From a virus (Duplodnaviria > Heunggongvirae > Uroviricota > Caudoviricetes): a stretch of DNA of 23,859 nt. A program made the position numbers and the translations under genes. Position 1 is the first letter of the stretch. Each line of letters begins with the position of its first letter. The notes beneath the pieces were generated by a model that saw only the letters and a program-made list of their open reading frames with translations, did no database searches and was not told the origin of the DNA. The stretch lies in IMG/VR virus record IMGVR_UViG_2690316225_000008; one strand, given 5' to 3'. Shown one piece after another: positions 6,475 through 19,985 of the stretch.

Positions 6475-9050
6475 CGCCTGCCTCCGGAAAAGACGCCGCC
6501 ATCACGCATCTGCGCCTGAATCTCATCCTGCGCCCCCTTGCGGGCCATGTCATACACCGCCTTCATCAGCTGCGGCCCCGCCTGTCCGTTGGTGCCGTCG
6601 TTCTGAATCACCACGTGATTGTTCTGATTAAAACTAATGCCTTCCGCCCGCCGCATCTGCGCCGGACTTCCGGCACCGCCCACATAACCACCTTCCGCAT
6701 ACCCGCGCATCAGACGATACAGGTTGCCGACGCCAATCCGGCTGGTTGCCTCCTTCGTGAAGACAAACTCCCCGCGGTGGACAATACCGGCAGGTTCGTA
6801 TTTGCCACCGGTTCCCGTAAATCCTCCGGTCGCGAAATGGAAGTTCGCCGCCGCAGCCTGAATGGCCGTCCCCGTGGAGGCAGACGCCCCACCACCGAAA
6901 GCACCACCCATGGCGCTGCCAATACTCCCGACAATCCCCACCATGGCCTGCTTCAGAAAAATCTCTGTCAGCATGGAGAGCACAGAACGGGTGAAACCAC
7001 GCCAGCTCTGTTCGCTGCCGGTCAGCATCGCTGCCATATTCTGTGCAATACCGTCAAAGGTCTGCGTGGCCACGCTTTTAACCTGCGAAAAACTGTCCGT
7101 CGCACTTTCTGCCCACTCGCCCCAGCCGGACTTCAGACCGGCCATCCAGCTTCCACGAAGCTGCTCCTCCGCAGACCAGGTGTTCTTCAGTGCAGATGTG
7201 GCCTTCGCCAGCGCATCCGGATTATCACCGTACACGTCACGAAGGCGCTGCGATTCCGACTCCCGCTGTGCCTGACGGTCCGTCAGCCCCCGGGCTTTTG
7301 CGCTGATTGCAGCCTGCTTCGCACTCTGCTGCTGTTCAAACCGCACAGCCTGATTTGCCAGCTCATTCAGCCGTTTCTGGTATTCAACCTTGTCACCCAG
7401 GTCAGCCAGCTGGCGTTTGTACTCCAGCGTCTCTTGCTCATGGGCCAGCAGGGATTTCTCCTGTGCAGACAGCTGGCGACGTTGCGCCGCCTCCTCCAGT
7501 ACCGCGAACTGACTCTCCGCCTTCCACAAATCCCGGCGCTGCTGGCTGATTTTCTCATTCGCTCCGCTGTGCTTCTCCAGCGTCCGGAGCTCGGTTTCAA
7601 GCGCCAGCAGCGCCGCATGCGTCAGGTCTTCCTGACGCTCACCGGCTGACACTTTAACACCTGACGACTTCGGCTTTTTCAGCGTCGATTCATAATCCTT
7701 TTTCGCCGCCGCCATCAGCGTGTTGTAATCCGCCTGCAGGATTTTCCCGTCTTTCAGGGCCTTATTCAGCTCTTCCTGCCGGTTAGTATATTTCTCCAGC
7801 GGCGTCAGCAGACGCTCATACGCCTTCTGCGCCTCTCCGGTATACTTCAGCTGTGATGCGTCCCGTTCGGCCCGGTCCCTGGTAGCCAGTTCACCGGCTT
7901 TTTCCATATCCGACTGCAGCGTGGCCGCTGCCAGCCCCAGACGGGCATTTTCCCGGTCATTCCATGCGCCCTGAAGGTTGGCCCGGAAAGAAGAGGTTTT
8001 ACCGCGGCGCTGGCTCCGGCTCTGGTACCACTGCCATTTTTTATCCGCCTCATCAAATGCCTTCTGCGCACTGGCGAGCATATCCGCTGAGGACTCAGGA
8101 CGACCGATATCCAGAATGGCATCCCACATCGATTTGAATGCCTTCCCGGTTTTATCCGCCCAGGTCTCCAGTGTCCCCATGTTTTCTTTCAGGCGACGGG
8201 TCTGCTCATCAAAGCCTTTCGTGGCGATATCGTTCGCCGCCTGTAAGGCCCCGGCCTCATCACCGGAACGCTGCAGCTGCGCAACATACGCAATCTGCTC
8301 TGCCGTCACGTTACGGAACTGGCGCGCCATCGCAATCAGCCCCGACGTAGAGTCGGTGGTCAGTTTTCCGAAAGCCTCTGCAACCTTGTCCACCTCCACA
8401 CCGGATGCAGAAGCAAAACGCGCGACACTCTGGTTGATGGCATCAAACTGTTCACCACCACGCACACCGGCATTCACCAGGGCTGCCAGTGACTCACTCG
8501 CCTGGTTAAACGTCAGCCCTGCGGCCTGTCCGGCTCTGGAGAGCGTCAGCATGCGATCGGCAGTCAGTCCGGACTGATTACCGGAAAGAACCAGGGTTTT
8601 ATTAAACGCTGAAAGCGTGGAATCCCCCTGGTACCAGGCGTACGCCAGCGCACCTGTCGCCACCGCCAGCGAGGTGACCCCGACCATCGGCAGGGTGATC
8701 GCACCGGCAAGCCCCCTGAACATGGGGATCATCCCGCCGAAGGAGTCCTTCACCTGACCGCCCTGTTGCAGCAGGATCAGCCAGGGATTCTGACCACCGG
8801 CAAGCTGCGTGGCGATATCCGTAAACTGTGCGGGCAGGGTTCGCATGGCCGCTTTATACTGCCCGACGGAAATCCCGGCTTTTTGTGCAGCCAGCGCCTG
8901 GCGGCTCAGGCCCTGTTCAACAGCACTGGCGGTTTTTCTGGCGTCAGTCTCCAGTCCGGAAAAATGACGCCTTACCCGGCTCATCTGCTCATCGAAACGG
9001 ACCGCATCCAGACTCAGATCAATAACAAGATCACCAACCGGCTGGGACAT
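6471..9050 (-). CDS. H: Tail tape measure protein H
   Basis: 859 aa; MSQPVGDLVIDLSLDAVRFDEQMSRVRRHFSG… collinear with lambda gpH (853 aa) through to …QMRDGGVFSGGRR. Confidence 0.93.
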   Translation of the reverse strand: MSQPVGDLVIDLSLDAVRFDEQMSRVRRHFSGLETDARKTASAVEQGLSRQALAAQKAGISVGQYKAAMRTLPAQFTDIATQLAGGQNPWLILLQQGGQVKDSFGGMIPMFRGLAGAITLPMVGVTSLAVATGALAYAWYQGDSTLSAFNKTLVLSGNQSGLTADRMLTLSRAGQAAGLTFNQASESLAALVNAGVRGGEQFDAINQSVARFASASGVEVDKVAEAFGKLTTDSTSGLIAMARQFRNVTAEQIAYVAQLQRSGDEAGALQAANDIATKGFDEQTRRLKENMGTLETWADKTGKAFKSMWDAILDIGRPESSADMLASAQKAFDEADKKWQWYQSRSQRRGKTSSFRANLQGAWNDRENARLGLAAATLQSDMEKAGELATRDRAERDASQLKYTGEAQKAYERLLTPLEKYTNRQEELNKALKDGKILQADYNTLMAAAKKDYESTLKKPKSSGVKVSAGERQEDLTHAALLALETELRTLEKHSGANEKISQQRRDLWKAESQFAVLEEAAQRRQLSAQEKSLLAHEQETLEYKRQLADLGDKVEYQKRLNELANQAVRFEQQQSAKQAAISAKARGLTDRQAQRESESQRLRDVYGDNPDALAKATSALKNTWSAEEQLRGSWMAGLKSGWGEWAESATDSFSQVKSVATQTFDGIAQNMAAMLTGSEQSWRGFTRSVLSMLTEIFLKQAMVGIVGSIGSAMGGAFGGGASASTGTAIQAAAANFHFATGGFTGTGGKYEPAGIVHRGEFVFTKEATSRIGVGNLYRLMRGYAEGGYVGGAGSPAQMRRAEGISFNQNNHVVIQNDGTNGQAGPQLMKAVYDMARKGAQDEIQAQMRDGGVFSGGRR

Positions 9051-9902
9051 ATCTCACACCTCCCGGAATCCCCGCTGAAGCCATCATTAATGCGACATCA
9101 TCCTCGCTGACATCCGCCACATCCGCAGACGATAAAATCTCACGCCCTCCGTCCCCACCAAACCGTACGCCTCCGGCAAGTCCTGCCGCTTTCTGCATCA
9201 GCATTTTTTCCTCATCCGGCATCTCCGTCTGCGCTTTCTCACGCCGGGGGGCAAGCAGACTGAAATCAGAGGGATGCATATCCGGATCGCAAAAAAACAG
9301 GCTGAGTACAGCGTACGTCAGCCCGGAAAAATGCATATCCAGCTGGGTATCGTGAAAATAATGCATGCGGTAAAAATGTCGCCAGTCGGCATATTCGGTG
9401 GATGTCATCCCGGCAAGCATGGCGCGCCAGTCAGGCCTCCCCATCTCACGCGCCAGTCTGAGGGCAAAATTCAGCTCGCCGTCGAAGACTTTCCCGCAGA
9501 AAAATCATCATCAGTCAGCGCGTTATTTTTCGCCACTTCGGTAATATCCGTATCCACATGAACAGGCCCGCTCATCCCGGACAGACGCAACACCACATCT
9601 TCCGCCCGGGCAATGGCATCAGCAGGCCAGGTGGTCAGGACTTCCTGCTCAATCTGCATCACAGCCTCATTCATTGACGGTGACCCCGTTTTCTGCGGAT
9701 GGTTATGCCACAGGGACATCGCCACCAGAAACGCGCCGGTTCTGACGAGATCTTCCACGCTTACCTGCAGGTTGCCGCTGGATTCTGCCTGTTCTGCACG
9801 CCGTTTCAGGAGGGCAAGATGCTCAATACGCTGCAGCGCAGACAATTCGGAAAGCGTGACAGACACACCGTTATATTCAAATTGTTCTGTTTTCAGAAAC
9901 AT
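9031..9902 (-). CDS. T: Tail assembly chaperone G-T fusion made by programmed -1 frameshift (T part 9031-9495)
   Basis: After GGGAAAG (complement of 9489-9495) the -1 frame reads VFDGELNFALRLAREMGRPDWRAMLAGMTSTEYADW… = lambda gpT; T frame has no own RBS-proximal start. Confidence 0.85.
9471..9902 (-). CDS. G: Tail assembly chaperone G
   Basis: 143 aa ending …DDDFSAGKSSTAS, as lambda gpG; contains slippery heptamer near its 3' end. Confidence 0.9.
   Translation of the reverse strand: MFLKTEQFEYNGVSVTLSELSALQRIEHLALLKRRAEQAESSGNLQVSVEDLVRTGAFLVAMSLWHNHPQKTGSPSMNEAVMQIEQEVLTTWPADAIARAEDVVLRLSGMSGPVHVDTDITEVAKNNALTDDDFSAGKSSTAS
9489..9495 (-). promoter_or_regulatory. Slippery heptamer G GGA AAG for G/T -1 ribosomal frameshift
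   Basis: Plus-strand ctttccc = minus-strand GGGAAAG located 6 codons before G stop, same motif and position as lambda. Confidence 0.8.
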
Positions 9903-9915
9903 GTATGACCTCCGT

Positions 9916-10668
9916 TTACCCTGCAGCGCCTGCTTCAGTAACGGTGACTTCAGCTACCGTGGCAAACTGACCATTACCGGAAATCACGGGGATACTCACT
10001 TTTCCAGCCTTAACCCCCGTCACAGTGATCACCATATCTTTCACAGCAATGGTTCCCGTTGACGGATCGGCGGAAACCGCTCTGAACGTCTTGTCGGTTG
10101 CACTTTCCGGCTCAAAAGAAACAGTCAGGGTGGTTGTTTTTCCTTTTTCCACGGTACCGGATGTCGGTGTCACCTTAATTGCAGTGGCCGGCGTAATTTC
10201 GCTGCGTTCTTCCGCCACGGAAGGTTTACCCACGTTGGTCACTTTCACCGTACGGGTGATCACTTCCTTCGCCGTTACGGCCTTACCGATACTGCTGACC
10301 CAGCCACGGAACACATCCACCGTGCCGTTCGGGAAACGGATTTTATAGGCCCGCACATCCCCGCTTTCAAACCAGCCTATAAGCCCTTTCTGACCTTCTT
10401 CTCCCGGTTTCCAGGCCAGCGTAAAACTGGTATCTCCTGCAGACTTCTGCCCCTGCCCGGTCGCGCTCCAGTCCGCGTCTTCATCATCCAGGTAGTTATC
10501 ATCGTAGGATTCTGCCGTCATCTCGCCCGGCGTCAGATCCTTCACCTTAGCCAGTCGCTGCCAGTCATCATCTGACAACGGGTTTGCATAAGCATCACCC
10601 TTGCCGGTGTAAACCCACAGAGTGGTACCGGCACCTTTTACCGGCGCCAGGGGATTTGGTGTTGGCAT
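9916..10668 (-). CDS. V: Major tail protein V with C-terminal Ig-like domain
   Basis: 250 aa; N-terminal part matches lambda gpV; C-terminal ~90 aa beta-rich T/V/S segment typical of the gpV Ig-like domain. Confidence 0.9.
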
Positions 10669-16987: not shown

Positions 16988-17190
16988 AACCTCACTCCCA
17001 GCGGACGACGGCGACGTCGGGTTGTCCCCAGTACCGACTCCGCATCATTGATCGCCCGGTTAAGCTCATCCAGAGAAGCCGCCGTATATTCAATTCTGCG
17101 ACCATCTTTCTGGACAGACACCACCCGTTTACCGGTTAATAAATCAAGGCGCGCCTGACGTAGCGCCTGTAGTTCAGCGACTGTAACCAT
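16984..17190 (-). CDS. W: Head-tail joining protein W
   Basis: 68 aa, same length as lambda gpW; …LLTGKRVVSVQKDGRRIEYTAASLDEL… matches gpW core. Confidence 0.88.
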   Translation of the reverse strand: MVTVAELQALRQARLDLLTGKRVVSVQKDGRRIEYTAASLDELNRAINDAESVLGTTRRRRRPLGVRL

Positions 17191-19072
17191 TCACTCCTCC
17201 GGACAGCTTCGCTGCCAGTTCTTTCAGGGTTGGCCGGGTCGTCTCTTCTTCCCGGGATTTTGCCAGTACAGCCAGATCAAGCTGCCAGCGTTGCACGGAC
17301 ACACGTAATGCCGCGTAGGCATACACCAGGCAGTCCAGCGCTTCGTTACGCCGCTTTTTGTTATCCCACAGCAGACGCATCTTTCCTTTTTCCCACTTCT
17401 CCACAAGCTCTTCCGCGACCAGTTGCTGCGCCTCTGTCTGCGAAAAAATCTCCGGATCATCAGGAAAACGGATGGCATACGACGTGGCTTCATCCGCAGG
17501 AGTGGGATCGGCTTTCATACGGGCATAGAGAATTTCTTTTGCGGTGTCCGTCCCCACTTCACACAGATACACGCCCCGCTGATTGCGGGTTTTCGGCATG
17601 GTGATCACCGGCTTGCCATAGACAGATGCGCCTTTTACCGGCAGCACCCGGAAAACACCGTGTTTTTTTGACCTCTGATAGACAATTTCACCATCGATCC
17701 CCCCGGTGTCCCAGCAGACACGGGAAATGGTCATTTCGGTTCCGTCTGCATGGCAGTATTTTTTGTTGATCGCCGCATCCACACGTAACAGCGTCTCTTC
17801 CTCATCGGGACGGCCCATAATGATGATTTTATCCACCAGAAAGGCTTCCTCTCCCTGTGCCCATCCCCAGACATACATCTCAAAACGGTTTCGCTGCGAG
17901 TCAATGCCCGCCGTCAGATAAACCACCCGAGCAGGCACCGCCGCCGTGTAACGCACCACCTTATCCATCAGTACCTGGTGATCGAGTTTTTCGCCCACGG
18001 CCTCTTCCCAGGTCTCGCCCAGCGTGGTGTTCACAAAGGTTTTCAGGCCGTTGGGATCTTTCAGTGCATCCAGCCAGTCATAGACTATCTGTATCCAGGT
18101 GGTGAACGGACTGTACGCCGTCCAGATATGGAACGTGATGGAGCGCGGCGGCGGAATTTCATCCCCCCGGGCGCTGAAAAACATCAGGCCGTCACGGGTC
18201 CACATACCCGTGTTTTCACAGATCCAGCGCCCGTTACTCTGGTCAAGCTCAGACTGATGGATCACGCAGCCATGATGTTCACAGAGGTAGAAAACGCTTT
18301 CGGGGCTGTCCTTCTCCCATTTAAGGCCAAAAGGCGTGGATTCATCGCCAAATTTCAGATACTGCGCCTCCCCACAGTGCGGGCAGGGCACATAGAAACG
18401 CATGAAATGCGCCGACTCGTTGGCCGCTTTTTCGATCTGGCAGGTACCTTTGATTTTAGGCGTCGAGCCGCGAATGGATTTTGGCCATACAGAGCCCTCA
18501 ATACGCTTATCCCCCAGCAGGGTTGGCGAGCCCTCTTTTTCGACATCCGGCTCGAACGAGGAAAGCTCGTCATAGCAGACCACGTCCACGGATTTTTCAC
18601 GGTAGTTTTTGGCGGCTGCACCGCCCAGGCACCAGAAACCGACGCCCGATGAAAAGCGTTTCAGCGTGAGAGTATTGTCACGATGTTTACGACCCAGCCA
18701 TGGGGAAAGGTCTTTCAGGCATGGCACGTTCCGAATCGTCGCCTCCACGTGAGACTTCATAAAATCTTCAGCGGCAGAATCCGTGGGCTGAAAAAGCAGA
18801 CTGTTTCGGGATTTATGCTCAATAAAATACCCGACCACCCCCAGCAACATCTTTGTATAGCCAACACGGGCAGATTTAATCAGGTTAACCGTGCGAACCT
18901 GGTCGTTACCCATACAGTTCATAATGGCGATCTGGAATGGCAGCGTTTTCCATTCTCCCTCACCATATGAAGATTCTTTAGGCAGATAATAATTTTGATC
19001 AGCCCATTCAACTGCCGTCATTGGTACAACCCTGACCAGAGGCTGCAGCGCAACCGAAACGGCAGCCATCAT
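17174..19072 (-). CDS. A: Terminase large subunit A
   Basis: 632 aa; …TAVEWADQNYYLPKESSYGEGEWKTLPFQ…KNYREKSVDV…YDELS… collinear with lambda gpA (641 aa). Confidence 0.93.
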   Translation of the reverse strand: MMAAVSVALQPLVRVVPMTAVEWADQNYYLPKESSYGEGEWKTLPFQIAIMNCMGNDQVRTVNLIKSARVGYTKMLLGVVGYFIEHKSRNSLLFQPTDSAAEDFMKSHVEATIRNVPCLKDLSPWLGRKHRDNTLTLKRFSSGVGFWCLGGAAAKNYREKSVDVVCYDELSSFEPDVEKEGSPTLLGDKRIEGSVWPKSIRGSTPKIKGTCQIEKAANESAHFMRFYVPCPHCGEAQYLKFGDESTPFGLKWEKDSPESVFYLCEHHGCVIHQSELDQSNGRWICENTGMWTRDGLMFFSARGDEIPPPRSITFHIWTAYSPFTTWIQIVYDWLDALKDPNGLKTFVNTTLGETWEEAVGEKLDHQVLMDKVVRYTAAVPARVVYLTAGIDSQRNRFEMYVWGWAQGEEAFLVDKIIIMGRPDEEETLLRVDAAINKKYCHADGTEMTISRVCWDTGGIDGEIVYQRSKKHGVFRVLPVKGASVYGKPVITMPKTRNQRGVYLCEVGTDTAKEILYARMKADPTPADEATSYAIRFPDDPEIFSQTEAQQLVAEELVEKWEKGKMRLLWDNKKRRNEALDCLVYAYAALRVSVQRWQLDLAVLAKSREEETTRPTLKELAAKLSGGVNGYSR

Positions 19073-19073
19073 A

Positions 19074-19583
19074 TTATTCAGTTGTTACTCTGATATATTC
19101 ATCGAGTAAATCCGGTAATTTATCCCCTGCCCGCGCACACTGATTTGCCCCCTTAGCAATAAGGGTTTTCAGATGGTCAAGATGGCGCGGTGTTAAATCA
19201 GGAAACTGTCGCTGCATGGATAAAGGGATGGAATCAAGCGTACTGGATAACGCCATTGCCAGCTTACTGAGGGCAAAAATACAGAACCCGGTGTCAATAA
19301 GTTTTCCTTTTGACACCTCATTTTTTAACTGCTGTGTAACAGCCTGTTCTGCTGTCAGTTCCCATCTGGCAATAAGCAATTTCTCCTCATAGTCGTCTTC
19401 GCTATCGCCATCAGGCACATCGTTTTTACTTCTCCTCAGATACGATATGTAAAAATCGCGCCAGGCATCCAGATCCAGTTGCCCTCGCTTATTCGATATC
19501 GGGGCACCCGGCAATTTCTGCAATCTGCGAAGCTGGCGATCGGTCAGACTTAAATGCCTGGCAACTTCAGTCTGCGTAGCCAC
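19074..19583 (-). CDS. Nu1: Terminase small subunit Nu1 (C-terminal half lambda-like, N-terminal DNA-binding domain divergent)
   Basis: 169 aa; C-terminal …FCIFALSKLAMALSSTLDSIPLSMQRQFPDLTPRHLDHL… resembles lambda gpNu1; apparent GTG start at 19581-19583 preceded by GAGGTGAGGAG; stop overlaps A start. Confidence 0.85.
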   Translation of the reverse strand: MATQTEVARHLSLTDRQLRRLQKLPGAPISNKRGQLDLDAWRDFYISYLRRSKNDVPDGDSEDDYEEKLLIARWELTAEQAVTQQLKNEVSKGKLIDTGFCIFALSKLAMALSSTLDSIPLSMQRQFPDLTPRHLDHLKTLIAKGANQCARAGDKLPDLLDEYIRVTTE

Positions 19584-19630
19584 TCCTCACCTCGCAAAAA
19601 CTCTCACCTCACAATCACAACAAAACCGGT

Positions 19631-19730
19631 CATGTCCGGTTTACATGTCTGTTTTTTGTTCATGTCCGGTTCACAGAAGACCTGTTTTTATATTTTTCAT
19701 ATAGTTAACTTGAAGAGAAACCGGACATGG
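19631..19730. promoter_or_regulatory. cosB-like terminase binding region: three CATGTCCGGTT repeats (two direct, one inverted) flanking an A/T-rich segment
   Basis: CATGTCCGGTT at 19631-19641 and 19661-19671; inverted copy (AACCGGACATG) at 19720-19730; A/T-rich 19681-19715 between them; lies between cosN and Nu1 as lambda cosB does. Confidence 0.65.
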
Positions 19731-19766
19731 ATCCCGGAAAATTTTCATAAATAGCGAAAACCCGCG

Positions 19767-19778
19767 AGGTCGCCGCCC
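19767..19778 (-). promoter_or_regulatory. cosN cohesive-end site (12-nt, identical to lambda GGGCGGCGACCT)
   Basis: Plus strand aggtcgccgccc = complement of GGGCGGCGACCT; about 45 nt of flank toward Nu1 and about 25 nt on the other side also match the lambda genome ends as I remember them. Confidence 0.85.
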
Positions 19779-19985
19779 CGTAACCTGTCGGATCGCCGGA
19801 AAGGACCCACGAAAATGATAATAATTATCATCTACATGAGGTTTATCACGACATGTGTGTACGCCATCAAACCACGAGAAATAATCAATTATTACGCAGG
19901 TATCGTATTAATTGATCTGCATCAAATTAGCGTAAAAGCAACTTCAGATAATACAAATCAGCAACACTGAATACGGGGCAACATT

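What the first reader, a model, noticed from the sequence alone, without database searches (positions are those of the whole stretch)
19584..19830. cos site with lambda-identical cosN but a different cosB, matched by a swapped Nu1 DNA-binding domain
The 12-nt cohesive end GGGCGGCGACCT and ~45 nt of flank toward Nu1 match phage lambda as I remember it. Where lambda has its R3/R2/R1 sites this phage instead has three CATGTCCGGTT repeats (two direct, one inverted, around an A/T-rich probable bend site). The Nu1 N-terminal domain is correspondingly unlike lambda, while its C-terminal domain (the part that contacts gpA) is lambda-like. This is the modular packaging-specificity swap known from the lambda/phage 21 pair; the repeat sequence itself may define a distinct specificity class.
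Basis: partly seen in the sequence, partly recalled or inferred. Interest (0 to 1): 0.5.

Follow-up and report, generated by a model that had tools for sequence, protein, structure and literature searches.

The report
Lambda-type cos site, new packaging specificity
This is the DNA-packaging start site (cos) of a lambda/phage-21-like E. coli prophage: its cutting site is identical to lambda's, but the adjacent recognition repeats and the matching DNA-binding domain of the small terminase belong to a different, very common and apparently undescribed specificity class.

Summary
On the minus strand the window carries cosQ, a cosN whose first 45 nt are identical to lambda, and then a different cosB. 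This cosB has three exact CATGTCCGGTT repeats, two degenerate copies and a 72% A+T spacer with an IHF-like core. It lies directly upstream of terS (Nu1) and terL.

- **Conserved layout.** In 14 diverged relatives only the repeat cores stay invariant, at a fixed 57-bp offset.
- **Same fold.** The TerS N-domain has no detectable sequence similarity to lambda or 21. Its model nevertheless superposes on lambda Nu1's winged helix-turn-helix domain.
- **Co-swapping.** Prophages with the same TerS C-domain but an N15-type or 21/lambda-type N-domain carry other repeat types.
- **Covariation.** Across 47 distinct N-domains, Arg at residue 20 goes with GTCCG repeats, and almost every other residue (38 of 40) with TTCCG repeats.

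TerL is 93% identical to phage 21's. The repeat shares CATGTC with 21's R sites. This copy has a stop at terL codon 6.

The element occurs in 21% of complete E. coli genomes, and its cosQ/cosN were published for O157 Sakai Sp4/Sp14. It is a new member of a known kind, of moderate interest.

The parts
19802..19808 (-). cosQ heptamer GGGTCCT, starting 30 nt upstream of the first base of the cohesive end
   Evidence: Sequence. The same heptamer sits at the same offset in nearly all related loci. cosQ is described as highly conserved in PMC4669245.
19767..19778 (-). cosN: the predicted 12-nt 5' cohesive end GGGCGGCGACCT
   Evidence: A single occurrence in the window. Identical to lambda and phage 21 nt 1-12. 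The nick positions are inferred by identity, not measured.
19734..19766 (-). cosN-proximal flank (p13-45), identical to lambda. It includes TATGAAAATTTTCCG, which was marked 'IHF' in the Sp4/Sp14 figure.
   Evidence: 100% identity over 45 nt to lambda. Fig. S8 of PMC2669165.
19719..19729 (-). R3-equivalent repeat CATGTCCGGTT (p50-60). Phage 21's annotated R3 lies at p50-65.
   Evidence: The TCCGGTT core is invariant and starts at p52-54 in 14 diverged relatives.
19695..19707 (-). I1-equivalent IHF-like core TAACTATATGAAA (p72-84) inside the 72% A+T spacer w19672-19718
   Evidence: It has 2 mismatches to YAANNNNTTGATW. The homologous position has 0 mismatches in 4 relatives and 1 mismatch in 4 more. 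Phage 21's annotated I1 lies at p74-86. AT content. The strict consensus scan found no site with at most 1 mismatch here.
19661..19671 (+). R2-equivalent repeat, inverted relative to R3 (p108-118)
   Evidence: The A.CCGGA core is invariant at p109-111, 57 bp from the R3 core, in 14 of 14 relatives. Phage 21's R2 lies at p107-122 in the opposite orientation.
19644..19654 (+). Degenerate copy CATGTCTGTTT (2 mismatches); significance doubtful
   Evidence: Not conserved in relatives.
19623..19642 (.). R1 region, a 20-bp near-palindrome AAACCGGTCATGTCCGGTTT as read on the + strand. It holds an exact copy on the plus strand (19631-19641) overlapping a 1-mismatch copy on the minus strand (19634..19624).
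   Evidence: An R1-like copy is present in only some relatives and its orientation varies. This fits an accessory role like that of lambda R1 (PMC4669245).
19419..19583 (-). TerS N-terminal winged helix-turn-helix domain (residues 1-55). The predicted recognition helix spans about residues 14-23 (w19544..19515), and the Arg20 codon is at w19526..19524.
19074..19418 (-). TerS central and C-terminal part (Phage_Nu1 family), presumed to handle oligomerisation and TerL binding
   Evidence: Pfam PF07471, 67.9 bits against a cut-off of 30, residues 49-150. 39-46% identity to lambda, 21 and N15. The same C-part is found fused to three N-domain types.
17174..19102 (-). terL (gpA family). The family start codon is ATG at w19102. 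Codon 6 is TAA (w19087..19085) in this window only. The longest ORF restarts at ATG w19072.
   Evidence: Pfam GpA_ATPase + GpA_nuclease. Sequence. 80 of 81 near-identical loci have CAA at this codon. 93% aa identity to phage 21 gp2.
19029..19733 (-). Specificity cassette relative to phage 21 and lambda: cosB + terS + the first ~25 codons of terL
   Evidence: Lambda and 21 identity stops at w19734 and w19738. 92.5% nt identity to phage 21 resumes at w19028.

Best explanation
The region is the cos site of a lambda-like prophage of the type found in O157:H7 (Sakai Sp4/Sp14-like). Its head-packaging enzyme is phage-21-like.

Proposed mechanism (inferred):
1. Dimers of the TerS N-terminal winged helix-turn-helix domain bind the inverted CATGTCCGGTT repeats R3 (p50-60) and R2 (p108-118).
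2. A bend at the A/T-rich, IHF-like I1 element between them brings the two repeats together.
3. The palindromic R1 pair acts as an accessory site.
4. The TerS C-terminal part holds TerL, through TerL's cognate N-terminus.
5. This places the TerL nuclease on the lambda-identical cosN, about 50 bp away. It makes staggered nicks that leave 12-nt GGGCGGCGACCT 5' ends. cosQ serves for termination.

Specificity lies in the R sites together with the recognition helix (about residues 14-23). Arg20 most likely reads the G of TGTCCGG.

Shown here: the sequence anatomy, conservation, geometry, co-swapping, covariation and fold. Inferred: binding, bending, nick positions, and whether the specificity is exclusive of phage 21, lambda and N15.
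For: - Anatomy: cosQ, cosN and the first 45 nt are identical to lambda. terS and terL lie immediately downstream.
- Positions match phage 21's annotated sites R3 50-65, I1 74-86, R2 107-122, R1 150-166 and terS start 189. The window has p50-60, p72-84, p108-118, p138-155 and p196.
- Footprint: in 14 complex cosB sequences from E. coli, Salmonella, Klebsiella, Citrobacter and Enterobacter, the invariant columns beyond cosN/I2 are TCCGGTT and A.CCGGA. Their offset is a constant 57 bp. The spacer sequence varies but keeps an IHF core with 0-2 mismatches.
- Co-swap: L235 (N15-type N-domain) and L236 (21/lambda-type N-domain) share the window-type C-domain and terL, with DNA homology starting at w19370 and w19394. 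They carry GGTTGTTGTT-type and CAGATCCGTTCTTC-type repeats, and no CATGTCCGGTT.
- Covariation: 47 distinct N-domains could be anchored by cosQ. All 7 with R20 have GTCCG-type repeats. The other 40 have another residue at position 20: 38 have TTCCG-type repeats and 2 have neither type.
- Independence: R20 arose in at least two clearly separate lineages. L169 is 65-67% identical to N/T20 sequences but only 44-52% identical to the enteric R20 group. A third lineage, L223, has GTGTC repeats.
- Viability of the class: PhiR12_1 to PhiR12_5 phage genomes carry a 96%-identical cosB + terS, and their records name laboratory propagation hosts. The Aeromonas phage phiARM81ld record starts exactly at the homologous p1.
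- Published cross-packaging: Sp4 DNA is packaged although its own nu1 is disrupted, and this was attributed to the terminase of Sp14, which has the identical cos (PMC2669165).
Against: - No binding, bending or end-mapping data exist for this class in anything I could search.
- The window's I1 core has 2 mismatches to the IHF consensus, and the strict scan (at most 1 mismatch) found nothing there.
- R1 has the orientation of R2, not of R3 as in lambda and 21.
- This copy's terL has a stop at codon 6, so its own terminase may be impaired.
- The covariation involves related sequences. The count of independent events is small: two clear, one suggestive.
- Published lambda/21 genetics assign bp 56 to residue 24 rather than residue 21 (PMC4669245). 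The single-residue reading may therefore be too simple.
Confidence: 0.85

Rival explanations
1. The site has phage-21 specificity in disguise. On this reading the repeats are slightly altered 21-type R sites (CATGTCGG), so 21-type terminases package this DNA and no distinct specificity class exists.
For: The repeat shares CATGTC with phage 21's R1 and R2 (TTTCATGTCGG) at almost the same coordinates. R2 shares GACATGAA with only a 1-bp offset. TerL is 93% identical to 21's. One-way cross-packaging is known between N15 and lambda (PMC4669245).
Against: The TerS N-domain gives no BLASTP hit to 21's. The half that is invariant across relatives is TCCGGTT, not CATG, which varies as GATG, AATG, CATT and CACT. 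R3 is shifted 3 bp relative to 21's TGTC. A prophage with a 21/lambda-type N-domain on the same C-domain uses different repeats.
Confidence: 0.07
2. This copy is an inert relic. The prophage is defective and its cos is never used, at least not by its own enzyme.
For: terL has TAA at codon 6, unique among 81 near-identical loci. In an O157:H7 genome whose 231-bp cos/terS-start segment is 100% identical to the window, terL and the portal gene are annotated as frameshifted. Many O157 prophages are defective (PMC2669165).
Against: All cos subsites are intact and identical to those of many other copies. Reinitiation at ATG w19072, 4 nt after the terS stop, could give a 632-aa TerL. Identical cos sites allow packaging in trans, as was suggested for Sp4 by Sp14. 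A defective enzyme would not change what the site is.
Confidence: 0.15
3. The repeats are transcriptional elements, either operators for a regulator or an attenuator/terminator hairpin in front of terS, and not terminase sites.
For: Two terminator-like stem-loops overlap the repeats, at w19642..19623 and w19737..19721. A PerC-family regulator gene lies 0.7 kb away.
Against: No sigma-70-like promoter occurs in w19400-20300. The repeat positions are fixed relative to cosN, not relative to terS, whose distance varies from 144 to 196 nt. The repeat sequence covaries with a TerS residue and co-swaps with the TerS N-domain. Distant relatives lack PerC but keep the repeats.
Confidence: 0.03

Closest known systems
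Bacteriophage lambda cos / gpNu1-gpA terminase
   Different: The R sequence is CATGTCCGGTT rather than CGTTTCC(t)TTCT. The N-domain shows no detectable sequence similarity. The TerS C-part is 46% and TerL 66% identical. R1 points the same way as R2.
Phage 21 cos / gp1-gp2 (the classical alternative specificity)
   Same: cosQ and cosN are identical. TerL is 93% identical from codon ~25 onward. R3, I1, R2 and R1 lie at nearly the same coordinates. The R sites share CATGTC. Arg occupies the aligned recognition-helix position (21 R21, window R20).
   Different: The cassette cosB + terS + the first ~25 terL codons (w19029-19733) is unrelated at the DNA level. The TerS N-domain gives no BLASTP hit, and the C-part is 39% identical. 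The 3' half of the repeat is CGGTT rather than GGnCC. The lambda/21 pair differs by a few helix residues within one N-domain family, whereas here the whole N-domain belongs to another family.
N15 / Monarch packaging specificity (Feiss lab, PMC4669245)
   Same: This is another case of a conserved lambda-like cosN with a different TerS N-domain and different R sites. Both simple (R3 only) and complex (R3-I1-R2-R1) cosB forms exist within one specificity family, as they do in the family described here.
   Different: The N-domain differs (MAVLLNKSDMASS...) and so do the R sites (GGTTGTTGTT). N15's TerS C-part is close to lambda's (73%), unlike the window's.
O157:H7 Sakai prophages Sp4/Sp14 cos and Nu1 (Asadulghani et al. 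2009, Fig. S8)
   Same: The Nu1 protein is essentially the same (the published C-terminus is RATTE; the window has RVTTE), as are cosQ, cosN and the start of cosB (...CCGGGATCCATGT). A PerC/pch gene lies nearby, as in these prophages (the pch location is from my own knowledge).
   Different: The published figure stops at the first bases of R3. It marks only cosQ, cosN and an IHF site. The cosB repeats and the TerS domain logic were not described there.
PICI cos sites and Rpp (redirecting phage packaging) proteins
   Different: Here the winged-HTH domain is part of a full-length TerS with a Nu1-family C-part. It is followed by terL and head genes, and no separate Rpp gene is present. PICI cosB is proposed to be R3-only.

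Membership tests
Lambda-like cos site (cosQ-cosN-cosB, 12-nt 5' cohesive ends) | cosN with strong identity to GGGCGGCGACCT and conserved flanking bases | tested here: met
   Exact and unique match at w19778..19767. 45 nt are identical to lambda.
Lambda-like cos site (cosQ-cosN-cosB, 12-nt 5' cohesive ends) | Conserved 7-bp cosQ upstream of cosN | tested here: met
   GGGTCCT at w19808..19802, 30 nt before p1.
Lambda-like cos site (cosQ-cosN-cosB, 12-nt 5' cohesive ends) | Complex cosB between cosN and terS: R3 near p50-65, an IHF site, then an inverted R2 about 55-60 bp away | tested here: met
   R3 at p50-60, I1-like core at p72-84, R2 at p108-118. The geometry is conserved in 14 of 14 relatives and matches phage 21's annotation.
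Lambda-like cos site (cosQ-cosN-cosB, 12-nt 5' cohesive ends) | Virion DNA ends are 12-nt 5' overhangs generated at cosN | not testable with these tools
   No virion end data are available. The only related observation is that the Aeromonas phage phiARM81ld record begins at the homologous p1.
Lambda-like cos site (cosQ-cosN-cosB, 12-nt 5' cohesive ends) | TerS binds the R sites and IHF binds I1 | not testable with these tools
   Only indirect support: co-swapping, residue-base covariation and IHF-consensus matches in relatives.
Lambda packaging specificity | R sites of CGTTTCC type and a lambda-type Nu1 recognition helix | tested here: not met
   The repeats are CATGTCCGGTT. There is no BLASTP hit between the N-domains.
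Phage 21 packaging specificity | R sites of C(A/G)TGTCGG type and a 21-type gp1 N-domain | tested here: not met
   The repeats share CATGTC but continue CGGTT. The N-domains give no BLASTP hit. TerL is 21-type (93%), but only from codon ~25 onward.
N15/Monarch packaging specificity | R sites of GGTTGTTGTT type and an N15-type gp1 N-domain | tested here: not met
   Neither is present in the window. Both are present together in L235, which shares the window's TerS C-part.
Phage_Nu1 small terminase family (Pfam PF07471) | Score above the Pfam gathering threshold | tested here: met
   67.9 bits against a cut-off of 30, but only residues 49-150 align, to profile positions 62-163.
Phage_Nu1 small terminase family (Pfam PF07471) | N-terminal MerR-like winged-HTH DNA-binding domain as in lambda gpNu1 (1J9I/6HN7_B) | tested here: met
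PICI cos / Rpp hijacking system | A stand-alone Rpp protein without a TerL-binding C-terminus, in an island that lacks terS/terL and head genes | tested here: not met
   The winged-HTH domain is fused to a Nu1-family C-part. It is followed by terL and by further large ORFs on the same strand that I did not characterise. The syntenic O157:H7 copy has the portal, protease and head decoration genes there.

The most novel reading that the evidence does not exclude
The window's cosB/TerS pair would be one allele of a large packaging-recognition family that spans the Proteobacteria. The family is defined by a TerS N-domain starting MATQxEVAxHL and by TCCGG-containing sites about 50 bp from a lambda-like cosN. 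It occurs with both simple and complex cosB. Within it, a single recognition-helix residue would set one base of the site: Arg20 with G (TGTCC), and Asn, Asp, Ser or Thr with T (TTTCC). The same Asn/Arg and T/G alternation is seen between lambda (N21, bp 56 T) and phage 21 (R21, bp 56 G). If this holds, packaging specificity would be predictable from sequence and could be reprogrammed by point mutations. The shared, unannotated cosB in 21% of E. coli genomes, with up to 4 copies per genome, would then define which co-resident prophages can package one another's DNA, including virulence-gene carriers such as the pch/PerC prophages of O157.
Probability: 0.4. Interest if true: 0.55.

Novelty: new member of a known kind. 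Interest (0 to 1): 0.4.

Why it matters
Packaging specificity decides which DNA enters a capsid. In polylysogenic pathogens such as O157:H7, prophages that share a cosB/TerS class can rescue each other's DNA. That includes defective prophages carrying virulence regulators, as was proposed for Sp4 and Sp14.

The lambda, 21 and N15 specificities have been dissected genetically. This class is present in about one in five complete E. coli genomes and is never annotated. It offers a fourth, naturally abundant allele with the same architecture. It also offers a simple candidate residue-to-base rule that can be tested directly.

It does not change the known mechanism of cos recognition.

Tried and rejected
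- Literature: full-text searches for the repeat sequences (CATGTCCGGTT, TTCCGGTTCCGG and reverse complements) returned only unrelated primer hits. Searches for the PhiR12 phages and for phiARM81ld cos data gave nothing useful.
- IHF: a strict consensus scan (WATCAANNNNTTR, at most 1 mismatch) found no site in the spacer. The I1 assignment rests on a 2-mismatch core plus better-matching homologous positions in relatives.
- Genome scan: the genome-contig scan returned only 6 distant loci and no enterobacterial ones.
- First viral scan: the first viral-contig scan returned 80 near-identical E. coli loci. Diversity came only after re-ordering the query alignment.
- Structure: the full-length single-sequence AF2 model was poor (pLDDT 64), and its Foldseek hits were insignificant. 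A profile search of PDB sequences with the N-domain gave only chance-level hits.
- Gifsy-1: I considered that Gifsy-1 might belong to this class, because L017 has the cosN variant described for it. Gifsy-1's TerS is 21-like, so I rejected this.

Full report
**Orientation and anatomy.** The prophage lies in reverse orientation in the window. I use phage coordinates p = 19779 - w, so p1 is the first base of the cohesive end.

Reading the minus strand gives this order:
- lysis genes, a PerC-family gene (w20606..20292) and a DUF3950 gene;
- cosQ GGGTCCT (w19808..19802);
- cosN GGGCGGCGACCT (w19778..19767, unique in the window);
- a 195-nt leader;
- terS (w19583..19074, GTG start, 169 aa);
- terL (ORF w19072..17174, Pfam GpA_ATPase + GpA_nuclease);
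- further large ORFs on the same strand, which I did not characterise. In the syntenic O157:H7 copy the genes after terL are the head-tail joining, portal, protease and decoration genes.

**Checking the observation.**
- *Flank.* p1-45 is 100% identical to lambda nt 1-45, and identity ends at p46.
- *Exact repeats.* CATGTCCGGTT occurs exactly three times in the 23.9-kb window, all within 110 bp: p50-60 in the forward orientation, and p108-118 and p138-148 inverted.
- *Degenerate copies.* A 1-mismatch forward copy at p145-155 overlaps the third repeat and gives a 20-bp palindrome. A 2-mismatch copy lies at p125-135.
- *Spacer.* The R3-R2 spacer is 72% A+T, against 46% for the whole window.
- *TerS.* Pfam Phage_Nu1 covers only TerS residues 49-150. 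Residues 1-58 give no BLASTP hit to lambda or 21 TerS. The remainder is 46%, 39% and 43% identical to lambda, 21 and N15.

**How common the element is, and what is published.**
- *In isolated phages.* Megablast against phage genomes shows lambda-like identity only up to w19734. Five isolated phages, PhiR12_1 to PhiR12_5, carry a 96%-identical cosB + terS.
- *In E. coli genomes.* The cosB segment alone (w19584-19733) is present in 1154 of 5426 complete E. coli genomes. There are up to 4 copies per genome, and no feature is ever annotated over it. It is 100% identical in O157:H7 strains.
- *Published figure.* Asadulghani et al. 2009 (PMC2669165, Fig. S8) aligned the cos and Nu1 of Sakai prophages Sp4 and Sp14 with lambda. 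Their Nu1 is this protein. Their figure marks cosQ, cosN and an IHF site and stops at ...CCGGGATCCATGT, the first bases of R3.
- *Published packaging result.* They found Sp4 DNA packaged even though its nu1 is disrupted. They proposed that the terminase of Sp14, whose cos is nearly identical, was responsible.
- *Known specificities.* The Feiss laboratory recognises lambda, 21 and N15/Monarch specificities, and complex versus simple cosB forms (PMC4669245). I found no description of this repeat class.

**Geometry compared with annotated phages.** The phage 21 record annotates R3 at 50-65, I1 at 74-86, R2 at 107-122 (opposite orientation), R1 at 150-166 and the terS start at 189. The window has R3 at p50-60, an IHF-like core TAACTATATGAAA at p72-84, R2 at p108-118, R1 at p138-155 and the terS start at p196.

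**Phylogenetic footprint.** I collected 14 diverged complex cosB sequences from E. coli, Salmonella, Klebsiella, Citrobacter and Enterobacter prophages that encode the same TerS N-domain type. A MAFFT alignment shows the following:
- Beyond cosN/I2, the invariant columns are TCCGGTT (the R3 core, starting at p52-54) and A.CCGGA (the R2 core, at p109-111).
- The offset between the two cores is 57 bp in all 14 sequences.
- The spacer sequence varies. It keeps a YAANNNNTTGATW core at p71-73 in most: 0 mismatches in 4, 1 mismatch at that position in 4 more, and 2 in the window.
- R1 is present in only some relatives and its orientation varies. This fits an accessory role, as in lambda.

**The TerS N-domain.**
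- *Fold.* With a 12-sequence alignment, AlphaFold gives a confident model (pLDDT 86): a short strand, helix 4-10, helix 15-22, a beta-hairpin wing and helix 38-54.
- *Sequence searches.* These find nothing in the PDB.

**Direct test of co-swapping.** The homologue search shows the window-type TerS C-part fused to three N-domain types: MATQ... (as in the window), N15-type (MAVLLNKSDMASS...) and 21/lambda-type (MKVNKK...).
- L235 (N15-type N-domain) is homologous to the window from w19370 onward, through terL. Its cosB has GGTTGTTGTT-type repeats arranged as R3, inverted R2 and R1.
- L236 (21/lambda-type N-domain) is homologous from w19394. It has CAGATCCGTTCTTC-type repeats.
- Neither locus has any CATGTCCGGTT-like site with 2 mismatches or fewer.

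N-domain type and repeat type thus change together, with the junction at the TerS domain boundary (codons ~64-72).

**The wider family.** The same N-domain occurs in Aeromonas, Pseudomonas and other E. coli phages. It also occurs in prophages of Azospirillum and of gammaproteobacterial metagenome-assembled genomes. In these, cosQ and a cosN-like sequence are followed at about p50-70 by tandem TTCCGGTTCCGG-type repeats just upstream of terS. This is a simple, N15-like cosB layout.

**Covariation.**
- *Counts.* 47 distinct N-domains have cosQ-anchored upstream DNA. All 7 with Arg at residue 20 have GTCCG-type repeats. Of the other 40, 38 have TTCCG-type repeats and 2 have neither type.
- *False exceptions.* Apparent exceptions come from the conserved TTTTCCGG in the I2 region or from very distant members.
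- *Independent lineages.* L169 (R20, with TGTGTCCGTGTCCGGTT) is 65-67% identical to N/T20 sequences but only 44-52% identical to the enteric R20 group, so it is an independent event. A third R20 lineage, L223, has GTGTCGTGTC.
- *Within the enteric group.* L195 (helix TDRQLRNLQK, with CATTTCCGGTT repeats) differs from L019 and the window (TDRQLRRLQK, with [C/G]ATGTCCGGTT) by that one helix residue.
- *Lambda and 21.* In the MAFFT alignment, window R20 aligns with lambda N21 and phage 21 R21. Lambda sites have T at bp 56 and 21 sites have G.
- *Caveat.* Published genetics emphasise residues 20 and 24. I treat the single-residue rule as a hypothesis.

1. TerL is 93% identical to phage 21 gp2 and 66% identical to lambda gpA. 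At the DNA level, 92.5% identity to phage 21 starts at w19028, which is terL codon ~25.
2. Relative to phage 21, the replaced unit is therefore a ~705-bp cassette (w19029-19733): cosB + terS + the TerL N-terminus. From established lambda/21 hybrid work, this N-terminus is the TerS-binding specificity segment of gpA (my own knowledge).
3. Phage 21's R sites are AATCGTGTCGGTACTT, TTTCATGTCGGACCTT (reverse complement of R2) and TTTCATGTCGGGCCTTG. The window's repeat shares CATGTC with them, and R2 is nearly in register.
4. In this window only, terL codon 6 is TAA (w19087..19085). 80 of 81 near-identical loci have CAA there. The ORF resumes at ATG w19072, 4 nt after the terS stop.

**Rival explanations.**
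- *Disguised 21 specificity.* This is unlikely. The N-domain is not 21-type, and the conserved half of the site is TCCGGTT rather than CATG.
- *Transcriptional role.* This is unlikely for four reasons. No promoter is present. The two hairpin hits simply are the repeats. The repeat positions are fixed relative to cosN rather than terS. The repeats covary with TerS.
- *Defective prophage.* This copy's own enzyme may be defective. That would not change what the site is, because identical cos sites can be used in trans.

**Verdict.** This is a genuine lambda-type cos site with a complex cosB. Its specificity class is distinct from lambda, 21 and N15. The class is very widespread, was partly shown in a 2009 supplementary figure, and was not characterised there. 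The mechanism is the known one, so this is a new member of a known kind and of moderate interest. The comparative residue-to-base rule is the part most worth testing.

Noticed in passing
window 19085-19102 (minus strand): In relatives terL starts at ATG w19102 (MNISEQQLNNMM..., compare lambda MNISNSQ...). In this window alone, codon 6 is TAA, caused by a C-to-T change at w19087 that also makes TerS A166V. 80 of 81 near-identical loci have CAA. The ORF restarts at ATG w19072, 4 nt after the terS stop, which would give a TerL lacking its first 10 residues.
   Followed up: partly
window 17111-19028 (minus strand) vs phage 21 OL657228 nt 783-2700 (L234): terL and the start of the next gene are 92.5% identical in DNA to phage 21 (93% aa for TerL) but only 66% aa identical to lambda gpA. 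A sharp mosaic junction lies at terL codon ~25, so the TerL N-terminus travels with terS.
   Followed up: yes
L234 (phage 21) 50-166 vs window 19624-19729: Phage 21's annotated R sites (C[A/G]TGTCGG...) share CATGTC with the window's CATGTCCGGTT. Lambda N21 and phage 21 R21 align with window R20 and parallel the T/G difference at bp 56. This hints at one recognition rule across the lambda, 21 and MATQ-type TerS families.
   Followed up: partly
L004, L005, L006, L008-L013, L101-L180 (upstream of terS): A family of cos phages and prophages from Aeromonas, Pseudomonas, Azospirillum and others has the same TerS N-domain. It also has cosQ GGGTCCT and tandem TTCCGGTTCCGG repeats about 50-70 nt from a cosN-like site. 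This is the simple (N15-like) cosB form of the same recognition family.
   Followed up: partly
L017 (Salmonella, Logan SRR30624611) p1-12: Its cosN is GGGCGGCAGCGT, which is lambda changed at positions 8, 9 and 11. This is the variant described for Gifsy-1 in PMC4669245. Yet it sits next to a MATQ-type TerS, whereas Gifsy-1's own TerS is 21-like. cosN variants and TerS types therefore reassort.
   Followed up: no
window 19986-20210 (+) and 20292-20606 (-): A DUF3950 (YlcI/YnfO-type) gene and a PerC-family transcriptional activator gene (pch-like, 149 bits) lie between the lysis genes and cos. This is the late-operon 'moron' position. The PerC gene would be packaged next to the right cohesive end.
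   Followed up: no
window 19808-19838: Just upstream of cosQ there is an A/T-rich palindrome GATAATAATTATC (inverted repeats I3 and I5). Lambda has GATAATCATTATC at the corresponding place in the Sp4/Sp14/lambda alignment. Its function was not examined.
   Followed up: no
L002 (E. coli O157:H7 PV15-279, NZ_AP018488) 6689-10394: In a genome whose 231-bp segment from cosN to the terS start is 100% identical to the window, RefSeq annotates both terL and the portal gene as frameshifted pseudogenes. Copies of this prophage type with an identical cos but defective packaging genes coexist in O157.
   Followed up: no
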